Under the pieces are notes generated by a model, which made no database searches, was not told where the DNA came from, and worked only from the letters and a program-made list of their open reading frames with translations. A DNA stretch of 64,000 nucleotides from Spirochaetes bacterium GWB1_36_13 (lineage in GTDB: Bacteria; Spirochaetota; GWB1-36-13): contig MIAO01000011.1 in the NCBI GenBank assembly GCA_001829155.1, forward strand, positions 2,723-66,722, given 5' to 3'. This document shows positions 14,853 through 57,373 of the stretch, one piece after another (positions within the stretch are counted from its first letter, which is position 1; every line of letters starts with the position of its first letter). Both the position numbers and the translations under genes were made by a program.

Positions 14853-15578
14853 ATGAGTTTTTTAAATGTAAATCTAAATAAGTGCAATCAGTGCGGGATC
14901 TGCGCTTCTGTCTGTCCGGCACAAGCGCTGGATAACCCCAAAGCGCCTTTGCAAAATCAGAAAAAATTAGATCATTTCCCTGTCCTTTCATCAGGCCAAG
15001 CGGAAGAATTTCTTCGTTCCCGCCGATCTATCCGGGTCTATGAAGATAAAAAAATACCCAACAATACCCTTTCAAAACTTTTAGATATGGGAAGGTTTGC
15101 TGAAACAGGAGGGAACAGCCAAAGCGTTTCTTATCTGGTAGTGAGCAAAAAAGAAATTTTACAGCAACTCAGCGAAATGACCCTGACCTGGATGGAACAG
15201 GAAATTGAAAAAGGAACCGGCTGGGTACAGCTTTATAAAGGCTTTGTAAAAAACTGCCGGACAACTGGGGAAGATTTAATTCTTCGGGGAGTGCCCCACC
15301 TGATTTTCGGAAAAGCGCAGAAAGCTTTTCCCCTTGGAAGAGAAAACACGGTTTTATCTTTTTCTTATATTGAATTATACGCAACCAGTCTTGGACTTGG
15401 GACTTGCTGGGCAGGATTTGTAGAAAATGCCGGGCGATCGGGGTACGAGCCGATGAGAAAAATACTCGGCATGGATGAAAATGAAGTTTTAACCGGAGCC
15501 TTGATGGCAGGTTTTCCCAAATACAGATACCATCGGCTTCCAGACAGAAATCCTCTATCTATCCGATGGATCGATTAG
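14853..15578 (+). CDS. Nitroreductase-family protein with an N-terminal 4Fe-4S ferredoxin-type Cys motif
   Basis: CNQCGICASVCP motif. The nitroreductase signature RRSIRVYEDKKIP follows. Confidence 0.55.
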   Translation: MSFLNVNLNKCNQCGICASVCPAQALDNPKAPLQNQKKLDHFPVLSSGQAEEFLRSRRSIRVYEDKKIPNNTLSKLLDMGRFAETGGNSQSVSYLVVSKKEILQQLSEMTLTWMEQEIEKGTGWVQLYKGFVKNCRTTGEDLILRGVPHLIFGKAQKAFPLGRENTVLSFSYIELYATSLGLGTCWAGFVENAGRSGYEPMRKILGMDENEVLTGALMAGFPKYRYHRLPDRNPLSIRWID

Positions 15579-16747: not shown

Positions 16748-19281
16748 GAAAGACAGTCCTTTTTTTCCTTTTCCTGCTCGCTCTGGCAGCCTGCCGGAAA
16801 TCATTTTCGCCCCCTGAGGAAAAAACTATTTTAAGGATTAACAAAGGAAAAGAAACTTTTTTGAATGAAATCAACGCTATGATACGGCCGAAAGGCATTT
16901 TGCCTGAAAGTTTGGGGATTTCTCAAGAAGGATTGATTCAGAAAAATTCCGCGGATTTTTATGAGTTTTTTGTCTTTGATAACCAAAAAGCTGTTTTTCT
17001 TCTTTCAGAAGACCCGCTCTGCTATCTTTCTATCGAAACCCCGTCTTTATTTTATCATCTTGAAAATGAGTATGAACAAATTTTAAGCGGTAAGTCTGGT
17101 ACTGAAAAATCAGTCAATACTTCTCATTTTTATATTGAGGCGGGCGGCTATGAAATCGGAGTTTTTTTTACTCCAAAAGAAGTTTATTACGCTTCTTCCA
17201 GTACAAATGTCAAACCAAGAATAATTTCAAGCTCAGTCAATACGCCTCCGCTCTGGAAACTTTTTGACGCCAGCAGCGAACTCTTTTTCTTCACTCCAGT
17301 TTTTCAGGAAGAACAACTTTTTGAAGATTTCAACAAAGATATTTTTGAGGATAAGGAAAAAAGATCCCTTTTTACCGTAAGTTCAACATTGAATCCGCCC
17401 ATCTATGAAAAAATCAGCTGGGCAATTTCTTTTACTTTTATCTACGGGAGAAAACCGGTTTTGACTTATGAACTTCTTCAGGATAAAAGTTTTTACAACC
17501 TTTCAGAGCGTTTTTTTACAGAAGATTATTTTGTTTTTATCACTCCTCCCTTAGGAAATGCCAAATCAACACAGAGAAACCTTTCTTTGAAAAACGGGCT
17601 GGTTCTCCTGATCCGGGGAGATGTTTCAAAAATTAAAGATTTTCTTTTGCAGCAAGGCGTTTCTTTTACCGGAGAACCTTCTTTTTTCCCTCTTCTTCTT
17701 TCTGATGCAGGAGACGGAAAGATTCAGGCAGACTGGCAAAAAGAAGCACTGATTTCTGTTTATCTGTGCCGTAAGCCCTACGGACAAAACCTCTGCCAAG
17801 CATCAGAAGACTATACGCTTATTTCTACTGTACAAGGTTCCGGCGCTTTAATGGATACCGCCTCGATGGGGGGAAAGGGCTATGAATATTTTGTGATGAT
17901 TCAAGAAAACGGGGTTGAAAAAAACCGGAAAAACATTATTCTCCCGATTGATCCTGATAAACTCGCCAATAAAATCATTTTATCTGAAGTCATGTGGGCA
18001 GGGAGTGTTTCTGATGAGGGTATTTCAGACACAGCGGACGACTGGATCGAGGCGAGAAATATTTCAGATAAATACCTGTCAACCCAAAATCTGAAGTTTA
18101 AACGGATCGGTTCAAGCTACTGGAGTATCACTGGGATTGACATGATTCTCCCTCCTCAGGGAAATCTGGTTGTGGCACGGAAAAATACAGGTATTTTTTC
18201 CCAGAGCCAGCCCCTTTATTTTGCCGTCAAATCAGCTCTCAGCCTCACCCAGGCAGACACTTACGATCTTGAAATCAGACTGGTGGACGAAACTCTTTTA
18301 GATACGGTCTTGGGCACAGCGATTATCCAAAACGGGTCATATTTAAATTCAAACTATTCCAAATCAATGGTTCGAATGGATGGTAATATATGGGGAACAT
18401 CAACGGCTGCTTCCACTCAAAACGGATACGAAGCAAAAACCTTTGCCTCGCCCGGAACAAAAAACGAGGGTGAAATCGGGGAAATTGAGGAAATCTATAC
18501 CCTTTCCCTTACCTATAATGGAGTTGATTCGATTCTTTTGGACTGGGAAAATGAAACATCAATGAGTATATGGGTTTGCAAATCTCCTTTGCAAAATTGT
18601 CAGGACGACGCTTCTTTTCAGGAAATCCAAACTTTAAACGGAAGTGATACTTCCATCAGTTTAAGCGGAATCGGAGGCAGGGGATACGAGTTTTTTATCC
18701 AGATCAAGAAAAACGGGATAAAAAAGGATCAAAAGTCGATTTTGATTGCCAAAGACCCTGATTTGACAGATAAAATCATCCTGACCGAAATCAACTGGGC
18801 TGGAAGTACTTCCAATGCAGGGGTTTCAACAGCCAGTGACGACTGGATCGAGATTCTAAACGATTCACAAAAGATTCTTTCCCTTGCCAATACAGCGATT
18901 GCCAGAGAGGGCACCAGCGCATGGACAATCAACGGGATTGTGAAAAATCTGATGCCGGGAGAAAAATACCTGATTGCGGCAATGCGTTCGGGCGTTCTTT
19001 CAGGGACAGCTGATGAGTCTATTTATGTTAAATCAAGTGTTTCTTTAACCCGTTCAACCGCCTACTCTCTGGCGCTAAAAGATTTGTCGGGAAATGTTTT
19101 AGACAGTGTTTCAGGAGACATTATTTATAATAACGGAGCCTATTCCAACAGCGCTTATTCAAAATCTTTGATAAAAACTTTGTCCGACACATGGACTACC
19201 AGCGTTATTAATGGAGAAAACCCGGATTACAACCAGAAGACATTCGGCACTCCCGGAAAAACCGGGGCAGGAGAAAAATAA
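16744..19281 (+). CDS. Large lipoprotein with an internally duplicated half, each containing a lamin-tail-domain (LTD)-like segment
   Basis: Lipobox LALAACRK. Duplicated blocks ISVYLCRKPYGQNLC...GKGYEYFVMIQENG...IILSEVMWAGS...DDWIE and MSIWVCKSPLQNCQ...GRGYEFFIQIKKNG...IILTEINWAGS...DDWIE. Overlaps the PLD gene (ATGA). Confidence 0.5.
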   Translation: MRKTVLFFLFLLALAACRKSFSPPEEKTILRINKGKETFLNEINAMIRPKGILPESLGISQEGLIQKNSADFYEFFVFDNQKAVFLLSEDPLCYLSIETPSLFYHLENEYEQILSGKSGTEKSVNTSHFYIEAGGYEIGVFFTPKEVYYASSSTNVKPRIISSSVNTPPLWKLFDASSELFFFTPVFQEEQLFEDFNKDIFEDKEKRSLFTVSSTLNPPIYEKISWAISFTFIYGRKPVLTYELLQDKSFYNLSERFFTEDYFVFITPPLGNAKSTQRNLSLKNGLVLLIRGDVSKIKDFLLQQGVSFTGEPSFFPLLLSDAGDGKIQADWQKEALISVYLCRKPYGQNLCQASEDYTLISTVQGSGALMDTASMGGKGYEYFVMIQENGVEKNRKNIILPIDPDKLANKIILSEVMWAGSVSDEGISDTADDWIEARNISDKYLSTQNLKFKRIGSSYWSITGIDMILPPQGNLVVARKNTGIFSQSQPLYFAVKSALSLTQADTYDLEIRLVDETLLDTVLGTAIIQNGSYLNSNYSKSMVRMDGNIWGTSTAASTQNGYEAKTFASPGTKNEGEIGEIEEIYTLSLTYNGVDSILLDWENETSMSIWVCKSPLQNCQDDASFQEIQTLNGSDTSISLSGIGGRGYEFFIQIKKNGIKKDQKSILIAKDPDLTDKIILTEINWAGSTSNAGVSTASDDWIEILNDSQKILSLANTAIAREGTSAWTINGIVKNLMPGEKYLIAAMRSGVLSGTADESIYVKSSVSLTRSTAYSLALKDLSGNVLDSVSGDIIYNNGAYSNSAYSKSLIKTLSDTWTTSVINGENPDYNQKTFGTPGKTGAGEK

Positions 19282-20681
19282 TGAAAAAATATTTAACAGT
19301 CATCCTTCTTTCTTATTTTCTTTTTGGTACACTCTATGGAGAATCTCAGGAAAAAAAAATTACTCAAAGCCTCAAAATTAAGTTTCAGACAGACGGCTGT
19401 TTTTTTGACAACGCCGATTTTAAATCCTATGATTATCAATTGTATCAAGATAATCAAGCCAATACACTTCTCAACACAGACGACAAAATCAGCTTTGTTT
19501 TGGGCGCACTTTCCCTCTCATACACAAGGGAAACTGAAAACTCTCTTTTTCAGACCGAGGTTTACCGGGAAGCTTTCTGGGGAGATGATAATTTTGAAAA
19601 CAAAAATGATGCCAATAATCCTCTGGCAGTCAAGCGGCTTTTTTTTCTCTACCGATTTTCAGATTCTTTTTCACTCTCCCTCGGGCGGCAGTTTTTCAGT
19701 CTTGGAAATTCATTCAGAGATTATTTTTTTGCGGATACGATTGACGGGGCTTTTTTCCGCTTTCAGATGGATGAAGATTTTAAATTAATTTTCATGAGCG
19801 ATCTTTTAGGAAACACTTCAAAACCCGATACCTATCTTTTCACGGCAGACAAGGATGACGAAACGATGGATGATTTTAACGGGGAAGTTTTAAATATCCG
19901 TACTGGAATGGTGATTGATTATAAAATCGTAAAAATCTTCGGGCTTTACCTCAAATACGGCGCGAGTCAAAAAGGCGGGGCGGACAGGGCTGAAAACGGT
20001 CAGAATTCAGTCAACCAGCCTGACCGGGATTTTCTTTTTCTGGGAGGTACAAGGGTTTTCCTTTCAGGAAAAAAAGAAGATGTTCTGGAAAATCTGGACT
20101 GGACTCTGGCTTATAGTCACGGCAAGGATTATCAGTTTACAGGAGATAAAACCTATTCAGGGTTTGGCTCAGCTTTAAACACATTGATTCATCTGGATGA
20201 AAAAGTCAGTATTTTTTTGACAGCGGGTTATTTTTCGCCCCATTTTGCAGGGATGAAAGCTTTTTCAATGGGAAATCTCCTCCTTTATGCCTATAAGGGC
20301 TACAGCGTTTCTGCCTATGCTTCCAACTACGGTTTTTCCGATGAAGCCAAGACAGATCCGGCAGGACGGATCGACCAGACGCTCTCAAAAACTTTTGCAG
20401 GAACAACGGCGGGCTTTACTCATCAAAACCTGAATCTGGAAATAAGCTCTTTGATTCTCTGGGGAGCGCTCAAAAAAACACGCCCCGATTATATGGGAGC
20501 GGCTTTTTCAGGAAAGCTCCAGGTTAAAATGGGAGAACTTGCTATTGCTTTGGAAGGCGAAATCTTTCTCCCCGGAAAGTTTTATCAGAAGAACGCGGGG
20601 CTTTCTGCCTACCTTCCCAAAGGAAACGATCCCTTTTACGGGGTCAAATTGAATTTTACCTACCAGTTTGATGTTTTTTAA
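19281..20681 (+). CDS. Putative outer-membrane beta-barrel protein (porin-like)
   Basis: Signal peptide. 466 aa rich in alternating aromatic/polar residues. The C-terminus is ..YQFDVF (terminal Phe). The start overlaps the previous stop. Confidence 0.45.
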   Translation: MKKYLTVILLSYFLFGTLYGESQEKKITQSLKIKFQTDGCFFDNADFKSYDYQLYQDNQANTLLNTDDKISFVLGALSLSYTRETENSLFQTEVYREAFWGDDNFENKNDANNPLAVKRLFFLYRFSDSFSLSLGRQFFSLGNSFRDYFFADTIDGAFFRFQMDEDFKLIFMSDLLGNTSKPDTYLFTADKDDETMDDFNGEVLNIRTGMVIDYKIVKIFGLYLKYGASQKGGADRAENGQNSVNQPDRDFLFLGGTRVFLSGKKEDVLENLDWTLAYSHGKDYQFTGDKTYSGFGSALNTLIHLDEKVSIFLTAGYFSPHFAGMKAFSMGNLLLYAYKGYSVSAYASNYGFSDEAKTDPAGRIDQTLSKTFAGTTAGFTHQNLNLEISSLILWGALKKTRPDYMGAAFSGKLQVKMGELAIALEGEIFLPGKFYQKNAGLSAYLPKGNDPFYGVKLNFTYQFDVF

Positions 20682-20805
20682 GTCTTGCAAGAGTTGAAAA
20701 AGGAATGAATATACGAAACTGAATAAAAAATGCAAAATTGTTATTCCAGTTTTTGCTAGTAAAAGACCGGAATCTATAGCTTAAAATACTTATTTTCAAT
20801 AGATT

Positions 20806-20849
20806 TCAGCCTTCGCGGGAATGACCGGAAGGGGTCTTTTTTTTTGTAA
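20806..20849 (+). terminator. Terminator-like hairpin plus T9 tract downstream of the OM operon
   Basis: CCTTCGCGG..CCGGAAGG imperfect stem, followed by GGTCTTTTTTTTT. Confidence 0.4.
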
Positions 20850-20874
20850 TTTAAAATCATTTCAGTATATAATC
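20845..20874 (+). promoter_or_regulatory. Sigma70-like promoter element (TTGTAA-N16-TATATA / TATAAT). It now points into the 3' end of the convergent HNH gene. It is probably the displaced ancestral gltB-side promoter.
   Basis: Hexamers seen directly. About 50 bp are near-identical to the speD promoter at 59012-59039 (shared taaaatcatttcagtata). Confidence 0.4.
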
Positions 20875-20967
20875 AAATTTTTTTGATTTTTCATAAAGCT
20901 TAGAAAAATATAAATTGAGTGTGATAAATATTGTTATTTAGGATTGACTCGGAATTATATTTTCATG
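20863..20967 (+). repeat. Left copy of a ~100-bp direct repeat flanking the Septu-like cassette
   Basis: tataatcaaatttttttgatttttcataaagcttagaaaaatataaattgagtgtgataaatattgttatttaggattgactcggaattatattttcatgat is ~92% identical to 23085-23190. Confidence 0.85.
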
Positions 20968-21117
20968 ATCTAAAAAATTTTGAAGCCTATAAACCGAAAG
21001 GTTTTAAATTTCTTCATGACCCTGAAATATTGAAGGATGAGTGAAATAATGGAATGAGAGGGGAATAAATTGGGTTTGTTTAAAAACTGTTTTTGATGCG
21101 TTTATCAGATATTGTCT

Positions 21118-21795
21118 TTATTTCTTGTAGTTTGAATGTTTTTTTAGTTTGAATAATTCAACGCCATAATAAGGACTAAGTTCGCCTGCAGTATTTCGCG
21201 AAGCACATTTATGAATTAATTTTTGTATTTGAGAAGGAGTTCTAAGTCCTTTATCAGAATTTAAAACTTGTTCGACAGCCAGGATTTTAGCTTTTCGATC
21301 TTTTTTCAGACGGTTAAAGTTAAGATTAAGAATTTCATTTAATTCTTTATCCCATGCCGGGTCTTTCGAAAAAATGGAGCCGTCATAATCATTATAGCCG
21401 ATATAATCAGAAACTGAAAAATTTGACGGATTATATTTAATATCAGAGTCTTTTTTGCGGGTATCACAATGCTGATTTTTTTCAGGAGCTCCTTTATTGC
21501 CTGAACAGCAAAGTAAAAGATTATCGTAATCCAATTGATTTTCTGGATAGTTTGATTGAGAAAAAAAATGTTCAATTTTTGATTTATTGATATCAATTCG
21601 GTTCATGCAATAAGCACAGAGAAAACCCTGTTCAGACGCCAGTTGTTTTCTAAGATTATCTTTATCTTTGAAAGACTCAAGAAGTTTACTTGTCTTAACC
21701 AGGTCTTCTTTAACTTGTTTCTTGTATTGAATTAAGCTCATAAGAGGCGGTAACTTTTTAAATTCAATCATTTTCTTTGTCCTCATAGAGAACAA
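21118..21795 (-). CDS. ptuB: HNH endonuclease, PtuB-like (Septu-type defence system nuclease)
   Basis: 225 aa. HNH/zinc-finger motif CAYC..(16)..EHFFSQS..DYDNLLLCCSGN..HCD. Overlaps the upstream ATPase gene by 32 nt. AT-rich. Confidence 0.65.
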   Translation of the reverse strand: MFSMRTKKMIEFKKLPPLMSLIQYKKQVKEDLVKTSKLLESFKDKDNLRKQLASEQGFLCAYCMNRIDINKSKIEHFFSQSNYPENQLDYDNLLLCCSGNKGAPEKNQHCDTRKKDSDIKYNPSNFSVSDYIGYNDYDGSIFSKDPAWDKELNEILNLNFNRLKKDRKAKILAVEQVLNSDKGLRTPSQIQKLIHKCASRNTAGELSPYYGVELFKLKKHSNYKK

Positions 21796-23032
21796 TCAGA
21801 GTCTCTGCTCTGAGGATTTCAGGGACGGGACCATAAGAAGATTTAAACTCTTTAATTTTTAATTTTGCATCACTGTAATTTTTATTCTCAATGGAAAAAA
21901 ATATTTCTTTTAATAATTTTTCCACTTCTTCATTAAGAGGAGAAGTCTGCATAATTTCTTCCAGTATATCATTTGAACTAAGACCTTTCGCCTGATAATT
22001 GTTATTGCAATATATTTCATCGTTTTCCTGAAAGAGTAAGTAAAGCGATTCTCCCATAATTTCTGTAATAATTTGAGGAGAATGGGTTGTTAAAATAAAT
22101 TGAAGATTAGGAAATGTTTTAGAAAGATTTCTAATAATTGTTTTTTGCCATTGAGGATGAAGGTGTAATTCGATTTCATCGATTAAAACAATTCCATTAC
22201 CCTGTAATGGCTCTTCTTTTTCTGGATTTGCTATGGCTAAACGCCGGGCTATATCTCCCGCCATGGCTAATAAACTTTTCTCGCCTACCGAAAGCTGGTC
22301 GATCTGATAGAATTTTTGATTTTTCTTAATCTGCATTTGGAGAGGATTTCTTTTCACTGTAATGTCATCAAATCCAGAAATAAGTTTTATCGCTTTTCTA
22401 ACAGATTTTAGTTGAATATCTTTCTGATAGGGTATTTTTTTTTCAACAGCATTTCGGAACAGCTCGTTTTCAATATCTTCTCTATTTCTGAACCATTCAA
22501 AAAAACTTCGGAATGTAATACCTGAGTTTAGGGCTTCGTCATAAGCATTTAATAAAGAAAATTCATGTTTTTTTCTAATTCTTAGAGGAATATCTTTTAC
22601 AGCCCGGTCAACATTATAATGTACAAACAAAGGCACATTAGCACTTTGAGGTTTATCCGTCATTGTTTTTCGATAAATATTCGCTAATTGACTGATTTGA
22701 GTAAGTTCTGATTTTTCTTCTGTTATAATCCCCGGTCTGTTTTTGACTAAAATACCAGAAAAATGTTGATCTGATTCCAAAGAAAAATCAGCCGTAATTT
22801 TGCAGAAGTGTTTATCGTTCTGTATATCAATAATTCCGATTGGTTTTCCTGTGCCGTTATTTTGTCTCATTCGCGCGATTATCCAAGATAAATGAACTGA
22901 AATCCCGTCTAAAATAGTACTTTTCCCAGAACCGTTGATTCCGCAGATGACATTTAAATTTTTATGAAAAGTAATGGATAAATTTTTGATTCCTCTGAAA
23001 TTATTTATGATCAATTTTTCTAATCGCATCAA
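21764..23032 (-). CDS. ptuA: AAA15/ABC-type (SMC-like) ATPase, PtuA-like (Septu-type defence system ATPase)
   Basis: 422 aa. Walker A GINGSGKST. Signature-like LSVGEKSLLAMAGDIARRL. Walker B IVLIDEIELHLHPQWQ. H-loop ILTTHSP. Confidence 0.65.
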   Translation of the reverse strand: MMRLEKLIINNFRGIKNLSITFHKNLNVICGINGSGKSTILDGISVHLSWIIARMRQNNGTGKPIGIIDIQNDKHFCKITADFSLESDQHFSGILVKNRPGIITEEKSELTQISQLANIYRKTMTDKPQSANVPLFVHYNVDRAVKDIPLRIRKKHEFSLLNAYDEALNSGITFRSFFEWFRNREDIENELFRNAVEKKIPYQKDIQLKSVRKAIKLISGFDDITVKRNPLQMQIKKNQKFYQIDQLSVGEKSLLAMAGDIARRLAIANPEKEEPLQGNGIVLIDEIELHLHPQWQKTIIRNLSKTFPNLQFILTTHSPQIITEIMGESLYLLFQENDEIYCNNNYQAKGLSSNDILEEIMQTSPLNEEVEKLLKEIFFSIENKNYSDAKLKIKEFKSSYGPVPEILRAETLIVLYEDKEND

Positions 23033-23084
23033 TTTTATCCTTGTTCTCTTTCACCATTTTTAATAGAATTAATACTCTGACTTT

Positions 23085-23190
23085 ATAATATAATCAAAGT
23101 TTTTTGATTTTTCAAAAGGCTTAGAAAAATATAAATTGAGTGTGAAAAATATTGTTATTAGGATTGACTCGGAATTATATTTTCGGGATT
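23085..23190 (+). repeat. Right copy of the ~100-bp direct repeat flanking the Septu-like cassette, immediately upstream of gltB
   Basis: ataatataatcaaagttttttgatttttcaaaaggcttagaaaaatataaattgagtgtgaaaaatattgttattaggattgactcggaattatattttcgggatt. Confidence 0.85.
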
Positions 23191-23448
23191 TATAAAATAA
23201 TTCAAAGATGTTCGTAAAAAATCTTGAAGTAAAAGAATTTTCAGTTATCCTGTTTATTTTCTCCAGAGTTGGTATTATATTTTATAACCCATAATAAATT
23301 TTGGAGAGAAGTTTTTGAAACTGATGAAACTCATCCATTCTTATTTTTGTTCTATTGCAATGCGGAATATCGTGAAAAACAATTATTTTGCTTGCTCCAA
23401 GTTCTAGTCAACAGCCAATTTTTATAAAATCTAAGGAGAAAAGAATCA

Positions 23449-26400
23449 ATGGCAGCGATGTATCCTTCGAATCAGGGTCTTTATGACAGTCAAAACGAAC
23501 ACGACTCTTGCGGTATCGGCTTTGTAGCCAATATCAAGGGGAAAAAGTCTTACAATATTATTGAGCGGGGGCTTGAAGTTCTGGAAAGAATGGAGCACCG
23601 CGGGGCGGAAAGCGCGGACAATAAAACGGGAGACGGAGCCGGAATCCTTTTTCAAATTCCACACAATTTTTATCAAGGTGAGCTAAAAGGGCTTCCTGAA
23701 TTCGGGAAATACGGGACAGGGCTGGTTTTTCTTCCAAAAGACGAAAAAAACAAAGAAAAAGTGAAAGCTGCTTTTGAAAAAGTGATCAAGGCGGAAGGGC
23801 TGGAAGTCTTCGCATTTAGAAAAATAGAGGTGGATTCTTCTGCTATTGGAGATATTGCGTTAAAATCAGAGCCTTCCATTGAACAGGTTTTTATTACCGG
23901 AAAAGACATAGATTCCAAAACTCTTGAAAGAAAACTCTACATTGTCCGAAAACTCTCTGAAAAGACTTTAAGAGAAAGCAAGATTGAAGATGCTTCCTAT
24001 TTTTATATGCCGAGCCTTTCTTCAAAAACTATTGTTTACAAAGGGATGCTGATGCCCGATCAGGTCAAGAAGTATTTCAAAGACCTTCAGAATCCGAAGA
24101 TGGAAAGTGCGATTGCGCTGGTACACTCACGGTTCAGCACCAATACTTTCCCAGCCTGGGAGCTGGCGCAGCCTTTTAGAATTGTGGCGCACAACGGGGA
24201 AATCAACACAGTGAAAGGAAACCGTTTCTGGATGCAGGCAAGGGAATCCATGCTTGAGTCCAAAGAGTTTGGAAAAGACATTGCGAAAATCCTTCCCGTC
24301 ATTGAGCCGGGAAAAAGCGATTCCGCATCTTTTGACAATGCGCTTGAAATGCTGGTAGCAGCCGGAAGGTCTCTCCCGCATGCGCTCATGATGATGATTC
24401 CTGAGTCCTGGAACGAGAAAAACCCGATTTCAAAAGATATTAAATCTTTTTACGAATACCACTCTACTTTTATGGAACCGTGGGACGGACCTGCTTCCAT
24501 GGTTTTCTGCGATGGAAGATTTGTGGGGGGGACACTGGATCGAAACGGGCTTCGTCCTTCCCGGTATGTGATCACCAAAAACGATATGATCGTGATGGGA
24601 TCGGAAGTAGGGGTACAGGAATTCGCACCTGAGGAGATTGCTTCGAAGGGAAGACTTTTACCCGGAAAACTCCTTTTAGTGGATACGCAAGAGGGGCGGA
24701 TTATCCCTGACAATGAAATCAAGTCAAAGATTGCCAATCAGAAACCTTATGGTGAATGGGTAGAAAAAAACAGGCTGAATCTTCCTGAAATTGCTGAAAG
24801 CAAAAACCAGCCTGCAAAAATCACAGGCGAAGAACTGAAAAAAATCGAAGTTCTTTTTAAATATTCCAGAGAAGACTTGGAAAGTATTATCAAACCGATG
24901 GCGGTAAACGGCGAGGAGCCAACCGGATCGATGGGGACTGATACTCCGATTGCGGCTTTCTCAGACAAGCCTGAGCTTCTTTTCAACTATTTCAAACAGA
25001 CTTTTGCACAGGTTACCAACCCTGCAATCGACCCGATCCGGGAAGAACTGGTTATGACTCTGACCAGCTACATCGGTTCGCAAAAAAACCTTCTGGACGA
25101 GACGCCCGAGCACTGCCAGATGATAAAATTCAAAACTCCTATTTTCACTGATAAAGAACTTCAGAAAATCAAGGATATGAACCACCAAAACTTCAAACCG
25201 GCTGTTTTTGATATTGTCTTTAAAGCATCAGAAGGCGAGAAAGGGCTTGAGAAAGCTTTAGACAAGCTCGCGGCTGAAATTGAGAAAAAAGTGGATCAGG
25301 GAACGAATATTATTATTCTTTCCGACCGGAAGGCTGGAAAAGATATGGCTCCGATTCCATCTCTTCTGGCATCTGCCGGGGTGCACCACCATCTGATCCG
25401 TGTGAAAAAAAGAACCCGAATCGGGCTTGTGATTGAAACGGCTGAAGCAAGGGAAGTGATGCATTTCGCCCTCCTTTTCGGATACGGCGCTGATGCGGTC
25501 AATCCTTACGGAGCTTTTGCAGTGATTGAAGAAATGGCGGCAAAAAATGAATTTGCCAAAGATATGACAGCCGATAAAGCGGTTGAAAATTTTATTAAAG
25601 CCAATAAAAAAGGCCTTTTAAAAGTCCTTTCCAAAATGGGGACTTCAACTTTGCGAAGCTACCGTGCGGCTCAAATTTTTGAAGCAATCGGGCTTGGAAA
25701 TGCGTTGATCGAAAAATACTTTACCGGAACCCAGTCCAGAATCGGCGGGGTCGGGATCAATGAAATCGCGGCTGAAACCCTTTTATCCCATAAAAAAGTT
25801 TTTATCGATACTCCAAAACTCCTTGAATCAGAAGGAATTTACCGTTTCAGAAAGAACGGTCATAAACATGCCTGGAATCCTGAAACCATTTATCTTCTCC
25901 AGTGGGCGACCCGAACCGGGGATTATCAGAAATACAAACAGTTTTCCAAAAAAGCCGATCAGGATACAATGAAACCTCATTTCATCCGCGGGCTTTTTGA
26001 TTTTAAAAAACAGAATGCGGTTCCTCTTTCTGAAGTTGAATCGGCTGAATCGATTTACAAACGGTTTACTACCGGGGCAATGTCTTTCGGTTCTCTCTCC
26101 AAAGAAGTCCACGAAGCGATGGCGATTGCTCTCAATGCGATCGGCGGGCGGAGCAACTCAGGAGAAGGAGGGGAAGACCCTGAAAGATTCAAACGAAGAT
26201 CAGACGGCACTCTTCCCCGAAGCGCTATCAAACAGGTGGCATCCGGCAGATTTGGTGTAACCAGCAACTACCTTGCCAATGCGGATGAAATTCAGATTAA
26301 AATTTCTCAGGGAGCAAAACCCGGAGAAGGGGGACAGCTTCCCGGGCATAAAGTCGATGAAATTATTGCGAGAACCCGTTATTCCACACCGGGCGTTACC

Positions 26401-50921: not shown

Positions 50922-51006
50922 ATAGAAGGAATTTTGAAATTAATTCCTTTTTTACCGTCAGGTAGTGTAAATAAATAGTTATTGAAAAACAATGTTATAA
51001 TTTCTA

Positions 51007-51063
51007 AAACTCCCCTTGTCTTCCTCTGGGAGATAAGGGGCTGGGGGTTTGTGGGCAAAAAAT
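51007..51063. repeat. Solo copy of the 57-bp G-rich repeat (56/57 identical to 32407-32463)
   Basis: aaactccccttgtcttcctctgggagataaggggctgggggtttgtgggcaaaaaat. Confidence 0.85.
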
Positions 51064-51127
51064 TTTCAGGTTTTTTATTTGAAAAATGAGTTTTTCAGGG
51101 TCGACTCAGTAATCTTATAAAAAACCG

Positions 51128-53345: not shown

Positions 53346-53535
53346 GAAATCCCCCTATAGTCTGAATAAATCTTCTTGTTGTTTTTATGAAATTTCTGAC
53401 TGAAATTTAATTATTTAGAAAAAATAGCTGGAATGCAAGCTTTTTGCTACATCAAAAAATGACAAAATGTCAAAAATTAAAAGTTTTAATATGTATGAAA
53501 AAAGGTACACTTGAAATATAATTAAGTGTAAAAAT

Positions 53536-53547
53536 TAAACTAAAGTA
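53536..53547 (+). promoter_or_regulatory. Conserved 12-mer TTAAACTAAAGT, 83 nt upstream of lipase paralog 1
   Basis: Exact 12-mer shared with 54960-54971, 56255-56266 and, with one change, 7986-7997. It is followed by TATAAT. Confidence 0.55.
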
Positions 53548-53629
53548 TAATAAATGAATTATTTTTAACAATATTTTAAATTGGTATGAAGATTGATATC
53601 TCTTTTAAAGAATTATAAGGAGGATTAAA

Positions 53630-54643
53630 ATGAAAAAACTAGTGATGGCGGTCTTGTTGATGGGAGCGCTTGTATTTACTTCATGTGCGAAAAGCGGGGA
53701 GCTTGATTCAAATGTATCAGCAGGCGACAGCAAGGGAACATGTTATGATCCCGGAGTCAATGCGTTTGGGTCACACTTCCAAAGCTATTTGAACAGCACA
53801 GGAAACTCAGACTTGACAGGATTTGGGGGATCTACGACTAAAACGGGAGATTGCGCTATTGTAAATCAGCCGGTAGTCTTTATTCACGGAAACGGAGACA
53901 ATGCCTCCGGATCAGCATTGCCGATGGGCGGATGGGTCACTTCCAGAAATTATTTTAAAACCAAAGGTTATAAACCATCAGAGCTTTATGCTGTAAATTA
54001 TGGAAAATCAGGAGCTATGAATGCGGCTTTAAACTATCACGCGGCGCCTAATATCAGTAAAATTTACCGGTTTATCGTAGCCGTTAAAAACTACTCAGGA
54101 CAAGCGAAAGTAGATGTCATTGCTCACTCGCTTGGGGTTACATCAGTCAGAGCAGCAGTCAAAGGCGGAACTTATAAAGAATATACAGGAACTTCAGTCT
54201 ATCTTGGAGCTTCTATCAATGGAATCGTGGATACTTTTGTAGGAATTTCCGGAGCAAACAGAGGACTTAATTCTTGCGGATCATGGCCTCTCAATAACTG
54301 GACGCCAACCTGCGGACCTACAGGACTTTCTATTAATAACCCGTTTTTAGTGGCAGTCAACGGCGGAAAAGCTTCTATGTATCTTTCTTGGGGAACTTGG
54401 AAACCAAATACTCTTAAAATGAAAGTAGGAAGCTATACTTACAGTATTATGTCTTATGCGGATGAATTGGGATGTATGCCTGCAATGCCTACTTACTGTT
54501 ATGTTTATGCAAGACATACTTCTTATCTGGACGGTCAAAACGGAGGAAAAGTTTACTATTCTTATCCATACGGTCACATGGGAAATAAAGAGCAGACAGC
54601 ATACTATCAGTATAAAATGGTTAAATATCACACAACTAATTAA
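53630..54643 (+). CDS. Secreted class-2 (LipA-like) lipase/esterase lipoprotein, paralog 1
   Basis: Lipobox VFTSCAK. PVVFIHGNGDN oxyanion region. Nucleophile motif VDVIAHSLGVTSV (cf. Bacillus LipA IVAHSMGGANT). Asp in YADELGCMP and His in YPYGHMGN. Confidence 0.75.
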   Translation: MKKLVMAVLLMGALVFTSCAKSGELDSNVSAGDSKGTCYDPGVNAFGSHFQSYLNSTGNSDLTGFGGSTTKTGDCAIVNQPVVFIHGNGDNASGSALPMGGWVTSRNYFKTKGYKPSELYAVNYGKSGAMNAALNYHAAPNISKIYRFIVAVKNYSGQAKVDVIAHSLGVTSVRAAVKGGTYKEYTGTSVYLGASINGIVDTFVGISGANRGLNSCGSWPLNNWTPTCGPTGLSINNPFLVAVNGGKASMYLSWGTWKPNTLKMKVGSYTYSIMSYADELGCMPAMPTYCYVYARHTSYLDGQNGGKVYYSYPYGHMGNKEQTAYYQYKMVKYHTTN

Positions 54644-54681
54644 TTCAGATTTCTCGTTGCTTCACATTTTTTCCTGAATGT

Positions 54682-54745
54682 CGGAGAGGTTTTTGTAAAG
54701 CAGGCAAAACCCTCTCCGGCGTTATTCTTTTCTGATCTTTTTTTT
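54682..54745 (+). terminator. Terminator after lipase 1
   Basis: CGGAGAGGTTT..AAACCCTCTCCG stem, then a T-rich tract. Confidence 0.6.
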
Positions 54746-54959
54746 CAAATTTTTTGTCTTGTCTGAGTAGGGGAAAACACAATGTTTATTATTATCACAC
54801 TTCGAAAATGACCAGCCGAACGGGTTTTATTTCTTGCTTTTAAATTCATCTTTTATTTCACTCTAAGGTCGTTTTAGAAAAAAATGTCAATAATGATTTT
54901 ACTTTTGTCATATCAAAGTAGGAAAAAAAATACATAAAAAAATTAGGGAAAAATGAAAA

Positions 54960-54971
54960 TTAAACTAAAGT
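54960..54971 (+). promoter_or_regulatory. Conserved 12-mer TTAAACTAAAGT, 89 nt upstream of lipase paralog 2
   Basis: Exact match. Confidence 0.55.
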
Positions 54972-55059
54972 TTATTATACAAAGGTTTTAAGAAAAAAAT
55001 AAAATTGGCATAAAAATTGAAATATTATTTTTGAAATATATAAAATGTGGAGGATTAAA

Positions 55060-56043
55060 ATGAAAAAACTACTTTTAGCGATGTTGGTCATCGCAGCGTT
55101 TGGGTTCACATCATGTGCAAAAAGCGGGGAGCCGGATTCAACTGTATCAGCAGGAGACACTAAGGGAGTATGTTATGATCCCGGGGTCAATGCATTTGGA
55201 TCAAACTTCCAAAGCTATTTGAACAGCACAGGAAACTCAGACTTGACAGGATTTGGCGGATCTACTTCTAAAACAGGTGATTGTGCCATTGTTAAACAAC
55301 CCGTTGTCTTTATTCACGGAAACGGAGACAATGCATCCGGATCAGCAATGCCGATGGGCGGATGGAAAACATCCAGAACTTATTTTATGAGCAAAGGTTA
55401 TAAACCATCAGAGCTTTATGCTGTAAATTATGGAAAACCAGGAGCTACGAATGCGGCTTTAAACTATCACTCAGCGCCTAATATCAGCAAGATCTACCGG
55501 TTTATCGTAGCCGTTAAAAACTACTCAGGACAAGCGAAAGTAGATGTGATTGCACACTCATTGGGAGTTACATCAGTCAGAGCAGCAGTCAAAGGCGGAA
55601 CTTATAAAGAATATACAGGAACTTCAGTTTATCTTGGAGCTGCTATCAATGGAATTATCGATACTTTCGTAGGAATTTCCGGAGCAAACAGAGGACTTAA
55701 TTCTTGCGGTGTTTGGCCTCTCGGAAGCTATACTCCAACCTGCGGACCTACAGGACTCGCTATTTCTAACCCATTTTTAGTTACTCTTCAGGGCGGAAGC
55801 AGATATCCATCTATGGCAAAAGTAGGAAGCTATACTTATACAATCTATTCTTATGCGGATGAACTGGCATGTATGCCTGTAATGCCTACTTACTGTTATG
55901 TTTACTACTATCACACTTCAAAAATGACCAGTCAAAACGGAGAAAAAGTTTATTACTCTTATCCATACGGTCACATGGGAAATAAAGAGCAAACACCAGC
56001 AGTCCAATACAACATGGTTGTCAATCACAATACCAACGGGTAA
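55060..56043 (+). CDS. Secreted class-2 lipase/esterase lipoprotein, paralog 2. Start at MKKLLLAML with a GGAGG RBS.
   Basis: Same motifs as paralog 1 (FTSCAK, PVVFIHGNGDN, VDVIAHSLGV, YADELACMP, YPYGHMGN). A central loop is shorter. Confidence 0.75.
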   Translation: MKKLLLAMLVIAAFGFTSCAKSGEPDSTVSAGDTKGVCYDPGVNAFGSNFQSYLNSTGNSDLTGFGGSTSKTGDCAIVKQPVVFIHGNGDNASGSAMPMGGWKTSRTYFMSKGYKPSELYAVNYGKPGATNAALNYHSAPNISKIYRFIVAVKNYSGQAKVDVIAHSLGVTSVRAAVKGGTYKEYTGTSVYLGAAINGIIDTFVGISGANRGLNSCGVWPLGSYTPTCGPTGLAISNPFLVTLQGGSRYPSMAKVGSYTYTIYSYADELACMPVMPTYCYVYYYHTSKMTSQNGEKVYYSYPYGHMGNKEQTPAVQYNMVVNHNTNG

Positions 56044-56053
56044 TTTTCTTTAT

Positions 56054-56085
56054 CCTCTCTGTCTTTCTGACAGAGAGGATTTTTA
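56054..56085 (+). terminator. Terminator after lipase 2
   Basis: CCTCTCTGTC-tttct-GACAGAGAGG, then ATTTTT. Confidence 0.7.
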
Positions 56086-56254
56086 AAAGCAATAATCAAA
56101 ATTATTTAATCAAATGAAAAGCTTTTTTTTATAAGAAGTTTGGGATTATCTTAAAAAATTTAAACTTTAGTTTACATTCCCTTTCTTTATGGCATTTTCT
56201 TTGTCAATAATGATAGGTAAAATACTACACTAAATGGTTTTTTAATTGTTTTTA

Positions 56255-56266
56255 TTAAACTAAAGT
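56255..56266 (+). promoter_or_regulatory. Conserved 12-mer TTAAACTAAAGT, 85 nt upstream of lipase paralog 3 (a variant TTAAACTTTAGT lies at 56159-56170)
   Basis: Exact match. Confidence 0.55.
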
Positions 56267-56350
56267 ATTACCCGCAGGTCTTTTTAAGAAAAAATAAAAC
56301 TTGGTCTTGAAAATGCATATAGTTTATTAAAGTAAATGTGGAGGCATAAA

Positions 56351-57373
56351 ATGAAAAGATTAGTTTTAGCGGTCTTGATTATGGGAGCGCTTGTATTTAA
56401 TGGATGTGCAAAAAGCGGGGAGCCGGATTCAACTGTATCAGCAGACGACAGCAAGGGAGTATGTTATGATCCCGGAGTCAATGCATTTGGATCAAACTTC
56501 CAAAGCTATTTGAACAGCACAGGGAACTCAGACTTGACAGGATTTGGCGGATCTACTTCTAAAACAGGTGATTGTGCCATTGTTAAACAACCCGTTGTCT
56601 TTATTCATGGAAACGGAGACAATGCATCCGGATCAGCAATGCCGATGGGCGGATGGGTCACTTCCAGAAATTATTTTAAAACCAAAGGTTATAAACCATC
56701 AGAGCTTTATGCTGTAAATTATGGAAAACCAGGAGCTATGAATGCGTCTTTAAACTATCACGAAGCTTCTAATATCAGCAAAATTTATCGGTTTATTGTA
56801 GCCGTTAAAAACTATTCCGGTATGGCAAAAGTAGATGTGATTGCTCACTCACTTGGGGTTACATCAGTCAGAGCAGCAGTCAAAGGCGGAACTTATAAAG
56901 AATATACAGGAACTTCAGTCTATCTTGGAGCTTCTATCAATGGAATTATTGATACTTTCGTAGGAATCTCCGGAGCAAACAGAGGGTTGAACTCTTGCGG
57001 ATCATGGCCTTTAAATATGTGGACACCAACCTGCGGACCTACAGGACTTTCTATCAATAACCCATTTTTAGTAGCAATCAACGGCGGAAAAGCTTCTATG
57101 TCCTATTCTTACTGGACATGGTCTTATGTGCCAAATACTCTTTCTATGAAAGTGGGAAGCTATACTTACAGCATTATGTCTTATGCGGATGAGCTGGGAT
57201 GTATGCCTGTAATGCCTACTTACTGTTATGTCTATGCCAGACATACTTCTTATCTTGACGGACAAAATGGAGGAAAAGTTTACTACTCTTATCCATACGG
57301 TCACATGGGAAATAAAGAGCAGACACCAGCAGTCCAATACAACATGGTTGTAAGTCACAATACCAACGGCTAG
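56351..57373 (+). CDS. Secreted class-2 lipase/esterase lipoprotein, paralog 3. Start at MKRLVLAVL with a GGAGG RBS.
   Basis: Same motif set (NGCAK lipobox, PVVFIHGNGDN, VDVIAHSLGV, YADELGCMP, YPYGHMGN). Confidence 0.75.
   Translation: MKRLVLAVLIMGALVFNGCAKSGEPDSTVSADDSKGVCYDPGVNAFGSNFQSYLNSTGNSDLTGFGGSTSKTGDCAIVKQPVVFIHGNGDNASGSAMPMGGWVTSRNYFKTKGYKPSELYAVNYGKPGAMNASLNYHEASNISKIYRFIVAVKNYSGMAKVDVIAHSLGVTSVRAAVKGGTYKEYTGTSVYLGASINGIIDTFVGISGANRGLNSCGSWPLNMWTPTCGPTGLSINNPFLVAINGGKASMSYSYWTWSYVPNTLSMKVGSYTYSIMSYADELGCMPVMPTYCYVYARHTSYLDGQNGGKVYYSYPYGHMGNKEQTPAVQYNMVVSHNTNG

What the first reader, a model, noticed from the sequence alone, without database searches (positions are those of the whole stretch)
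20863..23190. Septu-like ATPase + HNH defence pair inserted as a discrete AT-rich cassette bracketed by ~100-bp direct repeats
Two overlapping minus-strand genes encode an AAA15/ABC-type ATPase (GINGSGKST, DEIELHLHP, TTHSP; 21764-23032) and an HNH nuclease (CAYC..EHF..NLLLCC..HCD; 21118-21795). This gene order and domain pair match Septu PtuA/PtuB. The cassette sits between a conserved outer-membrane operon and gltB, and its GC is lower than its neighbours. It is flanked by 92%-identical ~100-bp direct repeats (20863-20967, 23085-23190). The repeats look like an insertion or cassette-exchange scar. They could also mediate precise loss of the system by homologous recombination.
Basis: partly seen in the sequence, partly recalled or inferred. 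Interest (0 to 1): 0.72.

Follow-up and report, generated by a model that had tools for sequence, protein, structure and literature searches.

The report
Septu defence pair with flanking repeats
This is an ordinary, apparently intact two-gene Septu anti-phage system (PtuA ATPase plus PtuB HNH nuclease) acquired by an uncultured groundwater spirochaete, and its only unusual feature is a pair of ~113-bp direct repeats that bracket it.

Summary
Two overlapping minus-strand genes (ptuA 21764-23029, ptuB 21118-21771) match PADLOC Septu models over their full length (E=2e-138 and 3e-58). All ATPase and HNH motifs are intact. A confident PtuA model matches only PtuA structures. There is no reverse transcriptase or ncRNA, so it is not a retron. 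There are no Hma genes and no integrase. GC3 is 0.24-0.25 against 0.38 for neighbouring genes. The closest PtuAB (about 50% identity) lie in other spirochaetes, embedded in Hma systems. This supports horizontal acquisition.

The 113/112-nt direct repeats (20866-20978 and 23087-23198; 8 differences) are real. They are present in five independent assemblies and occur only twice in 64 kb. They are not attC sites. Each begins at a TATAAT box of a host-type promoter module that also occurs at about 59 kb. They therefore look like a duplicated gltB promoter/leader segment. One haplotype shows a mosaic that suggests gene conversion between the copies.

No empty site could be found, because no close relatives exist in public data. 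"Insertion scar" therefore remains an inference. Bracketing repeats recur at 3 of 21 other Septu loci, against 2 of 252 control positions.

Verdict: a new member of a known kind, of modest interest.

The parts
21764..23029 (-). ptuA: Septu ABC-type ATPase, 421 aa (ATG start; the mechanical ORF extends to TTG 23032)
   Evidence: PADLOC PtuA PDLC00271 E=2.4e-138, covering residues 2-417 of the protein and positions 1-415 of the 421-position model. Pfam AAA_15, AAA_21, AAA_23 and SMC_N are above threshold. PDB sequence hits are to PtuA chains only, down to E=4e-34. The AF2 model has pLDDT 83.8, and its top 50 Foldseek hits are all PtuA chains with TM 0.6-0.8. Walker A G30-T38 (K36), signature LSVGEK at 246, Walker B D284-E285 and H-loop H316 are present. 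The identical protein lies on 4 public contigs.
21118..21771 (-). ptuB: Septu HNH nuclease, 217 aa, overlapping the ptuA stop by 8 nt (ATGATTGA)
   Evidence: PADLOC PtuB PDLC00322 E=2.5e-58, near full length. NCBIfam TIGR02646 (retron-system-type HNH) scores 58.6, above its cut-off of 52.15. PDB hits are to PtuB chains 22bv_F, 8ee7_C and 9e8z_E. C52xxC55, E67-H68, N84, C88-C89 and H101-C102-D103 are invariant in an alignment with four relatives at 45-48% identity. Pfam HNH reaches only 16.7 bits, below the cut-off of 21.4.
20866..20978 (+). left copy of the direct repeat (XL, 113 nt), 139 nt beyond the ptuB stop
   Evidence: 92-93% identical to the right copy, score 177 against a shuffle maximum of 34. 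Contains the palindrome ATCAAA-N-TTTGAT and an imperfect 16-18-nt inverted repeat. The RNA-fold z-score of -0.55 to -1.8 is not significant. No conserved ORF is present.
23087..23198 (+). right copy of the direct repeat (XR, 112 nt), 58 nt upstream of the ptuA start and 250 nt upstream of gltB
   Evidence: Interrupted by an NN scaffold gap in the NCBI MAG record DPXE01000016.1.
20844..20873 (+). sigma-70-like promoter (TTGTAA ... TATAAT) whose -10 box is the first bases of XL; it reads towards the 3' end of ptuB
   Evidence: Consensus scan scores 10/12. The sequence 20840-20869 matches 59008-59037 at 28/30, upstream of an AdoMet-decarboxylase-like ORF. The function is inferred, not shown.
23060..23089 (+). 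weaker counterpart of that promoter (TTAATA ... TATAAT) at the start of XR; it reads towards gltB
   Evidence: Consensus scan scores 10/12. Upstream of the -10 box the two copies still align at about 70% with a 2-nt indel. The function is inferred.
23087..23115 (-). candidate ptuAB promoter inside XR (TTGAAA-N17-TATATT), about 58 nt upstream of the ptuA ATG
   Evidence: Consensus scan scores 10/12. An AAGGA ribosome-binding site lies at 23038-23042, 8 nt before the ATG. The function is inferred.
20810..20845 (+). terminator-like GC-rich dyad plus T9 run, ending the upstream 466-aa gene just before the promoter and XL
   Evidence: Read directly from the sequence. The simple scan did not call it because its loop exceeds 8 nt. 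Public contigs break here, at a T/C polymorphism at 20847 and in the T-run.

Best explanation
The locus is a stand-alone (type I) Septu anti-phage system. By homology to characterised Septu, PtuA is an ABC-type ATPase that oligomerises and scaffolds the HNH nuclease PtuB. The complex stays inactive in uninfected cells. On phage infection the nuclease is released, and its activity stops phage propagation at the cost of host growth (abortive infection). In E. coli Septu that activity is DNA nicking in vitro and cleavage of the tRNA-Tyr variable loop in vivo. Shown here: family membership of both proteins, intact catalytic motifs, the PtuA fold, the operon structure with translational coupling, and the absence of retron, Hma and integrase partners. 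Inferred: the two genes were acquired horizontally, probably from another spirochaete lineage in which this PtuAB clade sits inside Hma systems. They landed in the intergenic region between a lineage-specific 466-aa gene and gltBD. The event duplicated, or recombined through, a 113-140-nt host promoter/leader segment. That left one copy on each side. The right copy now carries promoter-like sites facing both ptuA and gltB. The two copies are similar enough to exchange sequence (longest identical runs 27+27 nt). In principle they could also delete the cassette by RecA-dependent recombination.
For: Family membership: PADLOC PtuA E=2.4e-138 and PtuB E=2.5e-58, both near full length. Pfam AAA_15, AAA_21 and SMC_N. 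NCBIfam TIGR02646 above its cut-off. PDB sequence hits to PtuA and PtuB chains. PtuA model with pLDDT 83.8 whose 50 best Foldseek hits are all PtuA chains, including E. coli Septu 8EEA and 8EE4. Intactness: all motifs are present and invariant among relatives, and identical ORFs occur on several independent contigs. Not a retron: no ORF longer than 52 aa in the 416-bp region upstream of ptuA. No Rfam hit. The retron-type PtuA model reaches 362 bits against a cut-off of 500. The PtuA alignment to retron PtuA starts at residue 54 of the retron protein, so the N-terminal extension is missing. Foreign origin: GC3 of 0.24-0.25 against 0.376 +/- 0.069. The nearest PtuA proteins are 50-53% identical and include Sediminispirochaeta, Spirochaetaceae and Sphaerochaeta. 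All four contexts examined are Hma-embedded (the phenomenon is described in bioRxiv 10.1101/2024.01.29.577857). None of the 80 related gltB loci has ptuAB. Repeats. Promoter-module nature. Exchange between copies: in the ANAN16 haplotype, 3 of the 6 changes in the left copy adopt the right-copy state, and 1 change in the right copy adopts the left-copy state. The chance probability is about 2.5e-4. Mechanism from the literature: PMC12819146 (stand-alone PtuAB DNA nicking reduced by ATP; inflammasome-like assembly). PMC13096335 (E. coli Septu needs the Walker A/B and H-N-H residues, acts like abortive infection and cleaves the tRNA-Tyr variable loop).
Against: Nothing here shows function; the host is uncultured. 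No empty site, deletion allele or circular junction was found, so insertion and excision are inferences. Pfam HNH is below threshold for PtuB, and the single-sequence PtuB structure prediction failed with pLDDT 35. By sequence and fold, PtuA scores somewhat better against retron-associated PtuA than against E. coli stand-alone PtuA. Its closest relatives are Hma-embedded, so autonomy of this clade is assumed from the stand-alone context, not demonstrated. Promoter calls are consensus matches at a density no higher than in shuffled sequence (12 found against 11.9 expected). The mosaic haplotype could be an assembler blend of two similar repeats.
Confidence: 0.8

Rival explanations
1. The repeats have nothing to do with how the cassette arrived. 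They are copies of a propagated host promoter/regulatory module that happens to sit in both intergenic regions, possibly bound by one regulator.
For: Each copy begins at a TATAAT box. The left junction plus the first ~30 nt of the repeat resemble the promoter region at 59008-59065 (score 53 against a shuffle maximum of 37). A looser version lies at about 31769 on the minus strand. The repeat contains the palindrome ATCAAA-N4/5-TTTGAT between the -35 and -10 of the candidate ptuA promoter.
Against: The 59-kb similarity covers only about 60 nt, whereas the two flanking copies share 113 nt at 92-93%. In 64 kb the long form occurs only twice, exactly bracketing the one compositionally foreign gene pair here. 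The left copy faces the 3' end of ptuB and has no gene to drive.
Confidence: 0.2
2. The pair is the effector module of a type I-A retron (Ec78/Eco7-like), held in check by a reverse transcriptase and msDNA.
For: The best PDB sequence and fold matches are retron-associated PtuA chains. NCBIfam names both best hits 'retron Ec78 ... PtuA/PtuB'.
Against: There is no RT ORF and no ORF longer than 52 aa in the 416-bp upstream region. No structured RNA was detected. NCBIfam retron PtuA scores 362 against a cut-off of 500, and retron PtuB 96 against 150. PtuA is 421 aa against about 550 aa. It lacks the N-terminal extension and aligns in two blocks separated by the retron-specific insert. Those elements are what bind RT, ncRNA and msDNA in Ec78 (PMC12819146).
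Confidence: 0.03
3. The unit is an integron-type gene cassette, or CALIN, and the two repeats are attC recombination sites.
For: The geometry fits: repeat - promoterless-looking gene pair - repeat, about 110 nt, imperfect internal inverted repeat, same orientation. Chromosomal integrons are known in Treponema (own knowledge).
Against: There is no R'' (RYYYAAC) ... R' (GTTRRRY) pair in 20000-24000 on either strand, and the repeat has no AAC at all on the plus strand. No tyrosine recombinase was found among the window ORFs scanned; those scanned are core genes such as recA, dapB, guaA and a flagellar rod gene. Folding is not better than shuffles.
Confidence: 0.03
4. The pair is a remnant of a larger Hma+Septu locus and depends on, or once depended on, Hma partners. 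It is now an orphan of uncertain activity.
For: All four closest relatives examined sit between the Hma ATPase and methylase genes with 4-nt gaps.
Against: No Hma gene or gene fragment is present in the flanks or anywhere in the window (tblastn). Both ORFs and all motifs are intact. Septu is overwhelmingly found outside Hma; Payne et al. report that only 0.7% of Septu systems are embedded. Those authors treat embedded systems as independent units.
Confidence: 0.07
5. The pair is vertically inherited core DNA of this lineage, and the low GC reflects only amino-acid or expression bias.
For: Every public contig of this population has it. The repeats have diverged by 7%, so the arrangement is not very recent.
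Against: GC3 is about 1.8-2 sd below the window mean. The pair is absent next to gltB in 80 related species. The nearest relatives lie in unrelated contexts in other genera.
Confidence: 0.05

Closest known systems
Septu type I (stand-alone PtuA-PtuB; Doron et al. 2018; E. coli Septu structures 8EE4, 8EE7 and 8EEA, Li et al. 2024, as cited in PMC13096335 and PMC12819146)
   Same: Two genes on the same strand, ptuA then ptuB, overlapping. An ABC ATPase with Walker A/B, signature and H-loop motifs, plus an HNH nuclease with a CxxC...H...N...CC...HC core. No further partner genes. Full-length PADLOC Septu model hits. Fold TM 0.71-0.75 to 8EEA and 8EE4.
   Different: About 24-27% identity to the solved E. 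coli PtuA. PtuA is shorter (421 aa against 465 aa). The host is an uncultured Spirochaetia/Leptospirales-like MAG. The cassette is bracketed by 113-nt direct repeats. Activity, trigger and substrate are untested.
Retron type I-A (Retron-Eco7/Ec78, Ec83) PtuAB effector
   Same: Homologous PtuA and PtuB. These give the best PDB sequence and fold scores, and PtuB passes TIGR02646.
   Different: No reverse transcriptase, no msr/msd ncRNA, no N-terminal extension or ~100-aa insert in PtuA. NCBIfam equivalog scores are below their cut-offs.
Hma-embedded Septu (Payne et al., bioRxiv 10.1101/2024.01.29.577857)
   Same: The closest sequence relatives of this PtuA (50-53%) and PtuB (45-48%) belong to this arrangement, several of them in spirochaetes.
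   Different: No helicase, methylase or BrxC-like ATPase is present here. The pair stands alone between housekeeping-type genes.
Other ABC-ATPase plus nuclease defence pairs (PARIS AriA/AriB, Gabija GajA/GajB, OLD family)
   Same: The same ATPase superfamily, with weak hits to AriA, GajA and OLD. The same general logic of an ATPase sensor or scaffold that controls a nuclease.
   Different: The nuclease is HNH, not TOPRIM. E-values are 25 or more orders of magnitude weaker than to PtuA.
Integron gene cassettes / CALINs
   Same: A gene unit bracketed by same-orientation repeats of about 110 nt.
   Different: No attC R''/R' boxes, no IntI, and the repeat starts at a promoter -10 box.

Membership tests
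Septu (type I, PtuAB) | PtuA: ABC/SMC-like ATPase that matches Septu PtuA profiles over its full length | tested here: met
   PADLOC PDLC00271 E=2.4e-138, positions 1-415 of 421. Pfam AAA_15 83 bits and AAA_21 82 bits. AF2 model pLDDT 83.8, and all top Foldseek hits are PtuA.
Septu (type I, PtuAB) | PtuA catalytic motifs (Walker A Lys, Walker B Asp/Glu, signature, H-loop), which are required for defence in E. coli Septu (PMC13096335) | tested here: met
   GINGSGK36ST, LSVGEK at 246, D284-E285 and H316 are present and invariant in a 15-sequence alignment.
Septu (type I, PtuAB) | PtuB: HNH nuclease of the PtuB/TIGR02646 type with H-N-H and Cys ligands | tested here: met
   PADLOC PDLC00322 E=2.5e-58. 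TIGR02646 58.6, above 52.15. C52xxC55, H68, N84, C88C89 and H101C102 are invariant. Pfam HNH is below threshold at 16.7 against 21.4. The fold is untested, because the AF2 model failed.
Septu (type I, PtuAB) | ptuA immediately followed by ptuA-strand ptuB as one operon | tested here: met
   8-nt overlap, ATGATTGA. The same order occurs in all relatives examined.
Septu (type I, PtuAB) | PtuA oligomer scaffolding PtuB (inflammasome-like complex) with nuclease activity kept in check by ATP | not testable with these tools
   Known for E. coli Septu (cited in PMC12819146).
Septu (type I, PtuAB) | Protection against phage | not testable with these tools
   The host is an uncultured MAG lineage, and no assay is possible.
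Retron type I-A (Ec78/Eco7) | Reverse transcriptase gene adjacent to ptuA | tested here: not met
   No ORF longer than 52 aa lies between ptuA and gltB. The neighbours are gltB and a 466-aa protein with no Pfam hit.
Retron type I-A (Ec78/Eco7) | msr/msd ncRNA upstream | tested here: not met
   No Rfam hit at E<=1 other than noise in 20000-24000. Repeat folds are not better than shuffles.
Retron type I-A (Ec78/Eco7) | PtuA with an N-terminal extension and an msDNA-binding insert (about 550 aa), passing the NCBIfam equivalog | tested here: not met
   421 aa. NF041760 scores 362 against a cut-off of 500. The alignment to 9n69_A begins at its residue 54 and is split in two.
Hma system with embedded Septu | Flanking Hma ATPase (BrxC-like), N6/N4 methylase and SNF2 helicase genes | tested here: not met
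   tblastn of four sets of Hma proteins against the whole window returns only the PtuA and PtuB matches.
Integron cassette / CALIN | attC sites with R'' RYYYAAC and R' GTTRRRY; IntI integrase | tested here: not met
   No such pair in 20000-24000. No recombinase among the scanned window ORFs. A dedicated attC covariance model was not available.
Integrative element with att sites (integrase-mediated island) | Integrase or recombinase in the element, with short att core repeats at a tRNA, tmRNA or gene 3' end | tested here: not met
   The cassette holds only ptuA and ptuB. The window has no tRNA genes. The repeat is intergenic and begins at a promoter box.

The most novel reading that the evidence does not exclude
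The bracketing repeats may not be a one-off scar. They may instead mark a general, integrase-independent way in which two-gene Septu cassettes are gained, swapped and lost. A cassette flanked by copies of an intergenic (promoter) segment could loop out by RecA-dependent recombination as a circle carrying one repeat copy. It could then re-enter any genome, or any site, that holds a similar segment. The supporting hints are as follows. Same-orientation repeats of 35-143 nt bracket 3 of 21 other Septu loci, against 2 of 252 control positions (Fisher p=0.004). One locus (L158) has three repeat copies that separate two different Septu pairs. The two copies here show a gene-conversion-like mosaic.
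Probability: 0.12. Interest if true: 0.55.

Novelty: new member of a known kind. Interest (0 to 1): 0.27.

Why it matters
As a Septu system it adds little. Septu is one of the commonest defence systems, with more than 5,400 PtuA homologues at E<=1e-20 in a single search. This copy has the standard genes and motifs. It extends Septu to an uncultured groundwater spirochaete lineage. It also shows that the PtuAB clade usually embedded in Hma systems can exist as a free-standing pair, which supports the view that embedded systems are independent modules. The more useful lead is the repeat architecture. If repeat-bracketed, integrase-less defence cassettes prove to be common, they would give a simple recombination-based route for the rapid gain and loss of small defence systems at chromosomal sites that carry no mobility genes. 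How such systems turn over there is only partly explained.

Tried and rejected
1. Empty-site search. A genome scan with the 466-aa flanking protein found no relative. A scan with the GltB N-terminus returned 80 loci at <=71% identity, none sharing the upstream synteny. Protein searches found nothing between 47% and 100% identity for the flanking gene, and nothing above 73% for GltB. Distant homologues of the flanking gene sit in unrelated contexts. All contigs with the exact flanking protein carry the cassette or end before it.

2. Repeat elsewhere. There were no exact matches in JGI metagenome contigs. That null is uninformative, because a JGI contig that does contain the repeat (L088) was not found. 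There were no matches in viral contigs. There was no similarity in 178 fetched loci totalling 2.2 Mb. There was no DNA-level match in phages, and only short ptuA-coding matches in plasmids.

3. An apparent 101-bp deletion of the right repeat in the NCBI MAG is an NN scaffold gap.

4. Contig breaks next to the left repeat come from a SNP at 20847 and the T-run, not from an empty-site allele.

5. A structured RNA in the repeat was rejected. There are no Rfam hits, and fold z-scores are -0.55 to -1.8.

6. A small protein encoded in the repeat was rejected, because the frames are not conserved between the copies.

7. attC or integron identity was rejected.

8. Relics of Hma genes in the cassette flanks were not found.

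9. PtuB structure. The single-sequence model had pLDDT 35 and was discarded.

10. 'BREX type 3 with embedded Septu' was my first reading of the relatives' context. It was replaced by the published Hma description.


Full report
**What is there.** Window 20600-23450 holds two minus-strand ORFs and two AT-rich intergenic regions, lying between a plus-strand 466-aa gene (19281-20681) and gltB (23449-27987). Public gene calls on contigs carrying the identical sequence start ptuA at ATG 23029 (421 aa). Most of them start ptuB at ATG 21771 (217 aa), which gives an 8-nt ATGATTGA overlap typical of translational coupling. An AAGGA ribosome-binding site lies 8 nt before ATG 23029.

**The repeat.** The direct repeat spans 20866-20978 (113 nt) and 23087-23198 (112 nt). 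It has seven substitutions and one single-base indel. The local alignment scores 177, against a maximum of 34 for shuffled sequence. Each half occurs exactly twice in the window, with none expected by chance. In a self-comparison of the whole window the only other repeats are three lipase paralogues, an intragenic domain repeat and one unrelated 134-nt pair. Both copies, with the same differences, are present in independently assembled contigs from ENA, JGI and the ANAN16 study. The repeat is therefore not an assembly artefact. The GC dip is real. It is clearest at third codon positions: 0.239 and 0.254, against 0.376 +/- 0.069 for the other 42 ORFs of the window that were examined.

**Organism and population.** The identical PtuA is encoded on contigs from Rifle-type groundwater metagenomes and on NCBI MAG GCA_003527435.1. 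One source names the flanking protein as from a 'Spirochaetia bacterium'. The nearest GltB sequences are about 70% identical and belong to Spirochaetota/Leptospirales MAGs. The window otherwise carries core genes, including recA, dapB, guaA, a flagellar rod gene and gltBD. There are no tRNA genes and no recombinase.

**Identity of the two proteins.** PtuA matches PADLOC Septu model PDLC00271 at E=2.4e-138 over essentially its whole length. PtuB matches PDLC00322 at E=2.5e-58. Pfam gives AAA_15, AAA_21, AAA_23 and SMC_N for PtuA, and only a sub-threshold HNH hit for PtuB. NCBIfam TIGR02646, the PtuB-type HNH family, is above its cut-off. Against PDB sequences, PtuA hits only PtuA chains down to E=4e-34, then AriA, Rad50, OLD and GajA far behind. 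PtuB hits PtuB chains weakly. An AlphaFold2 model of PtuA, built on an alignment of 15 homologues, has pLDDT 83.8 and pTM 0.76. Its 50 best Foldseek matches in the PDB are all PtuA chains from Retron-Eco7/Ec78/Ec83 and from E. coli Septu (8EEA, 8EE4), at query-normalised TM 0.61-0.79. Walker A (K36), the LSVGEK signature, Walker B (D284-E285) and the H-loop (H316) are present. In PtuB, C52xxC55, E67-H68, N84, C88-C89 and H101-C102-D103 are invariant among relatives. A single-sequence PtuB model failed with pLDDT 35 and was not used.

**What it is not.** It is not a retron effector:
- No RT gene is present, and no ORF above 52 aa lies in the 416 bp upstream of ptuA.
- No Rfam hit was found.
- The retron-type NCBIfam equivalogs are below their cut-offs.
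- PtuA lacks the N-terminal extension and internal insert that bind RT, ncRNA and msDNA in Ec78 (PMC12819146).

It is also not Hma-embedded, because no Hma gene or relic is present. It is not an integron cassette, because there are no attC R''/R' boxes and no IntI.

**How it most likely works.** This part is inferred by homology. In characterised stand-alone Septu, PtuA forms an oligomeric scaffold for PtuB. DNA-nicking activity is reduced by ATP and is tightly controlled before infection (PMC12819146). [quoted passage not shown] All of these residues are conserved here, so I expect the same logic. The trigger and the substrate in this host are unknown.

**Origin.** The closest PtuA proteins are only 50-53% identical, and several come from spirochaetes (Sediminispirochaeta, Spirochaetaceae, Sphaerochaeta). 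In all four contexts fetched, ptuAB lies between a BrxC-like ATPase and an N6/N4 methylase followed by an SNF2 helicase, with 4-nt gaps. I first read this as BREX. It is in fact the Hma system with embedded Septu, already described by Payne et al.. Together with the low GC3 and the absence of ptuAB from 80 related gltB loci, this supports horizontal acquisition of a free-standing copy of an otherwise embedded clade.

**The repeats.**
- *Promoter context.* Each copy begins at a TATAAT box of a plus-strand sigma-70-like site: TTGTAA...TATAAT at 20844-20873 and TTAATA...TATAAT at 23060-23089. Upstream of the -10 box the two sides still align at about 70%.
- *A host module.* The left promoter plus the first ~30 nt of the repeat resemble a promoter region at 59008-59065, upstream of an AdoMet-decarboxylase-like gene. 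The match is 28/30 in the core, with a score of 53 against a shuffle maximum of 37. The duplicated segment therefore looks like a host promoter/leader module, most simply the original gltB promoter region, and not the end of a mobile element.
- *A candidate ptuAB promoter.* The right copy also holds a minus-strand TTGAAA-N17-TATATT about 58 nt upstream of ptuA. All of these promoter calls are consensus matches, at a density no higher than in shuffled sequence. They need transcript mapping.
- *No RNA or coding signal.* Folding is not better than for shuffles, and no reading frame is conserved between the copies.
- *Recombination potential.* The longest identical runs are 27 and 27 nt. That is marginal but usable for homologous recombination (own knowledge of minimal processing segments).
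- *A mosaic haplotype.* In the ANAN16 haplotype the left copy differs from the common haplotype at six sites. Three of these adopt the right-copy state. The right copy carries one left-copy state. By chance this has a probability of about 2.5e-4. It suggests gene conversion between the copies, although an assembler blend cannot be excluded.

**The decisive test could not be run.** I found no empty site, deletion allele or sister lineage. An apparent 101-bp deletion in the NCBI MAG is an NN gap. Contig breaks at the left repeat coincide with a SNP at 20847 and a T-run. The metagenome scan for the repeat was negative but uninformative, because that collection misses a JGI contig known to contain the repeat.

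**Is the architecture recurrent?** I applied the same geometry test to 21 other Septu-like loci from metagenomes with adequate flanks. Three of them have same-orientation bracketing repeats:
- L109 has 73 nt at 84%, and the repeat duplicates the 3' end of acetate kinase.
- L118 has 35 identical nt and lies next to a large serine recombinase.
- L158 has three copies, at 79-91% identity, that separate two different Septu pairs inside a defence island.

The pairs in these three loci were confirmed as Septu. A fourth hit is a terminator-like hairpin and was discounted. Random positions in 80 control loci gave 2 of 252; Fisher p=0.0036. The four Hma-embedded loci have none. The contexts are heterogeneous, and accessory DNA is generally repeat-rich. 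This is therefore a lead, not a result.

**Verdict.** This is a bona fide, apparently functional stand-alone Septu system in a new host lineage, so it is a new member of a known kind. The 'scar' interpretation is reasonable but unproven. I refine it to a duplicated host promoter/leader segment whose two copies appear to exchange sequence. Interest is modest.

Noticed in passing
window 30094-31684 (minus strand): A second gene pair, even more AT-rich (GC3 0.14), lies just downstream of gltBD. It is a 132-aa protein that hits PADLOC PD-T4-10_A (E=2.2e-10), followed by a 402-aa DUF6575 protein. gltBD is therefore flanked on both sides by small foreign defence-like pairs. This second pair has no bracketing repeats.
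   Followed up: partly
L093-L098 (contexts of the closest PtuA homologues): The closest PtuAB relatives (45-53% identity), several of them in spirochaetes, are all embedded in a conserved operon: a small ORF, a 1241-aa BrxC-like ATPase, PtuA, PtuB, an N6/N4 methylase of about 930 aa, and an SNF2 helicase. This is the published Hma-embedded Septu arrangement.
   Followed up: yes
L158 2867-8292 (JGI contig Ga0190343_1000037): Three copies of a 100-260-nt repeat (79-91% identical) separate two different Septu pairs. The pairs are PtuA 456 aa + PtuB 217 aa, and a 107-aa ORF + PtuA 430 aa + a truncated 121-aa PtuB. The locus sits in a defence island next to NurA and methylase genes. It looks like a cassette array and not a tandem duplication.
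   Followed up: partly
L109 5871-5943 and 8157-8226; L118 572-606 and 2912-2946: Two further Septu pairs are bracketed by direct repeats. In L109 the repeat is a duplicated 3' end of acetate kinase. In L118 it is a perfect 35-mer, with a large serine recombinase gene abutting the downstream copy.
   Followed up: partly
window 20847-20940, compared with L089 (ANAN16-1 scaffold_960): A second haplotype of the left repeat has six changes. Three match the right-copy state, and one reciprocal change occurs in the right copy. The T20847C change also turns the -35 box TTGTAA into TTGCAA, the form seen at 59 kb. Public contigs break at this polymorphic spot.
   Followed up: partly
window 59008-59065 (and loosely about 31769, minus strand): A promoter-like module nearly identical to the one abutting the left repeat (28/30 in the core) lies upstream of an AdoMet-decarboxylase-like ORF. 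This suggests a recurrent promoter type or a propagated promoter segment in this genome.
   Followed up: partly
window 32344-32474 and 50942-51073: An unrelated 134-nt direct repeat (80% identical; a 68-nt core at 94%) occurs twice, 18.6 kb apart. It contains a G/C-rich dyad.
   Followed up: no
window 53531-57428: Three tandem paralogous class-2 lipase genes (Pfam Lipase_2) are 82-87% identical at the DNA level.
   Followed up: no
window about 14917-14922, compared with L001 and L002: Public contigs differ from the window by an 80-100-bp indel near the start of the nitroreductase-family gene. The gene calls change accordingly: 163, 241 or 271 aa for the nitroreductase and 345 or 393 aa for the neighbouring PLD gene. 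This is either strain variation or an assembly difference.
   Followed up: no
L003/L090 (NCBI DPXE01000016.1), equivalent to window 23046-23146: The NCBI MAG record has an NN scaffold gap that removes 101 bp, including half of the right repeat and the candidate ptuA promoter. Anyone working from that record alone would miss the repeat pair.
   Followed up: yes
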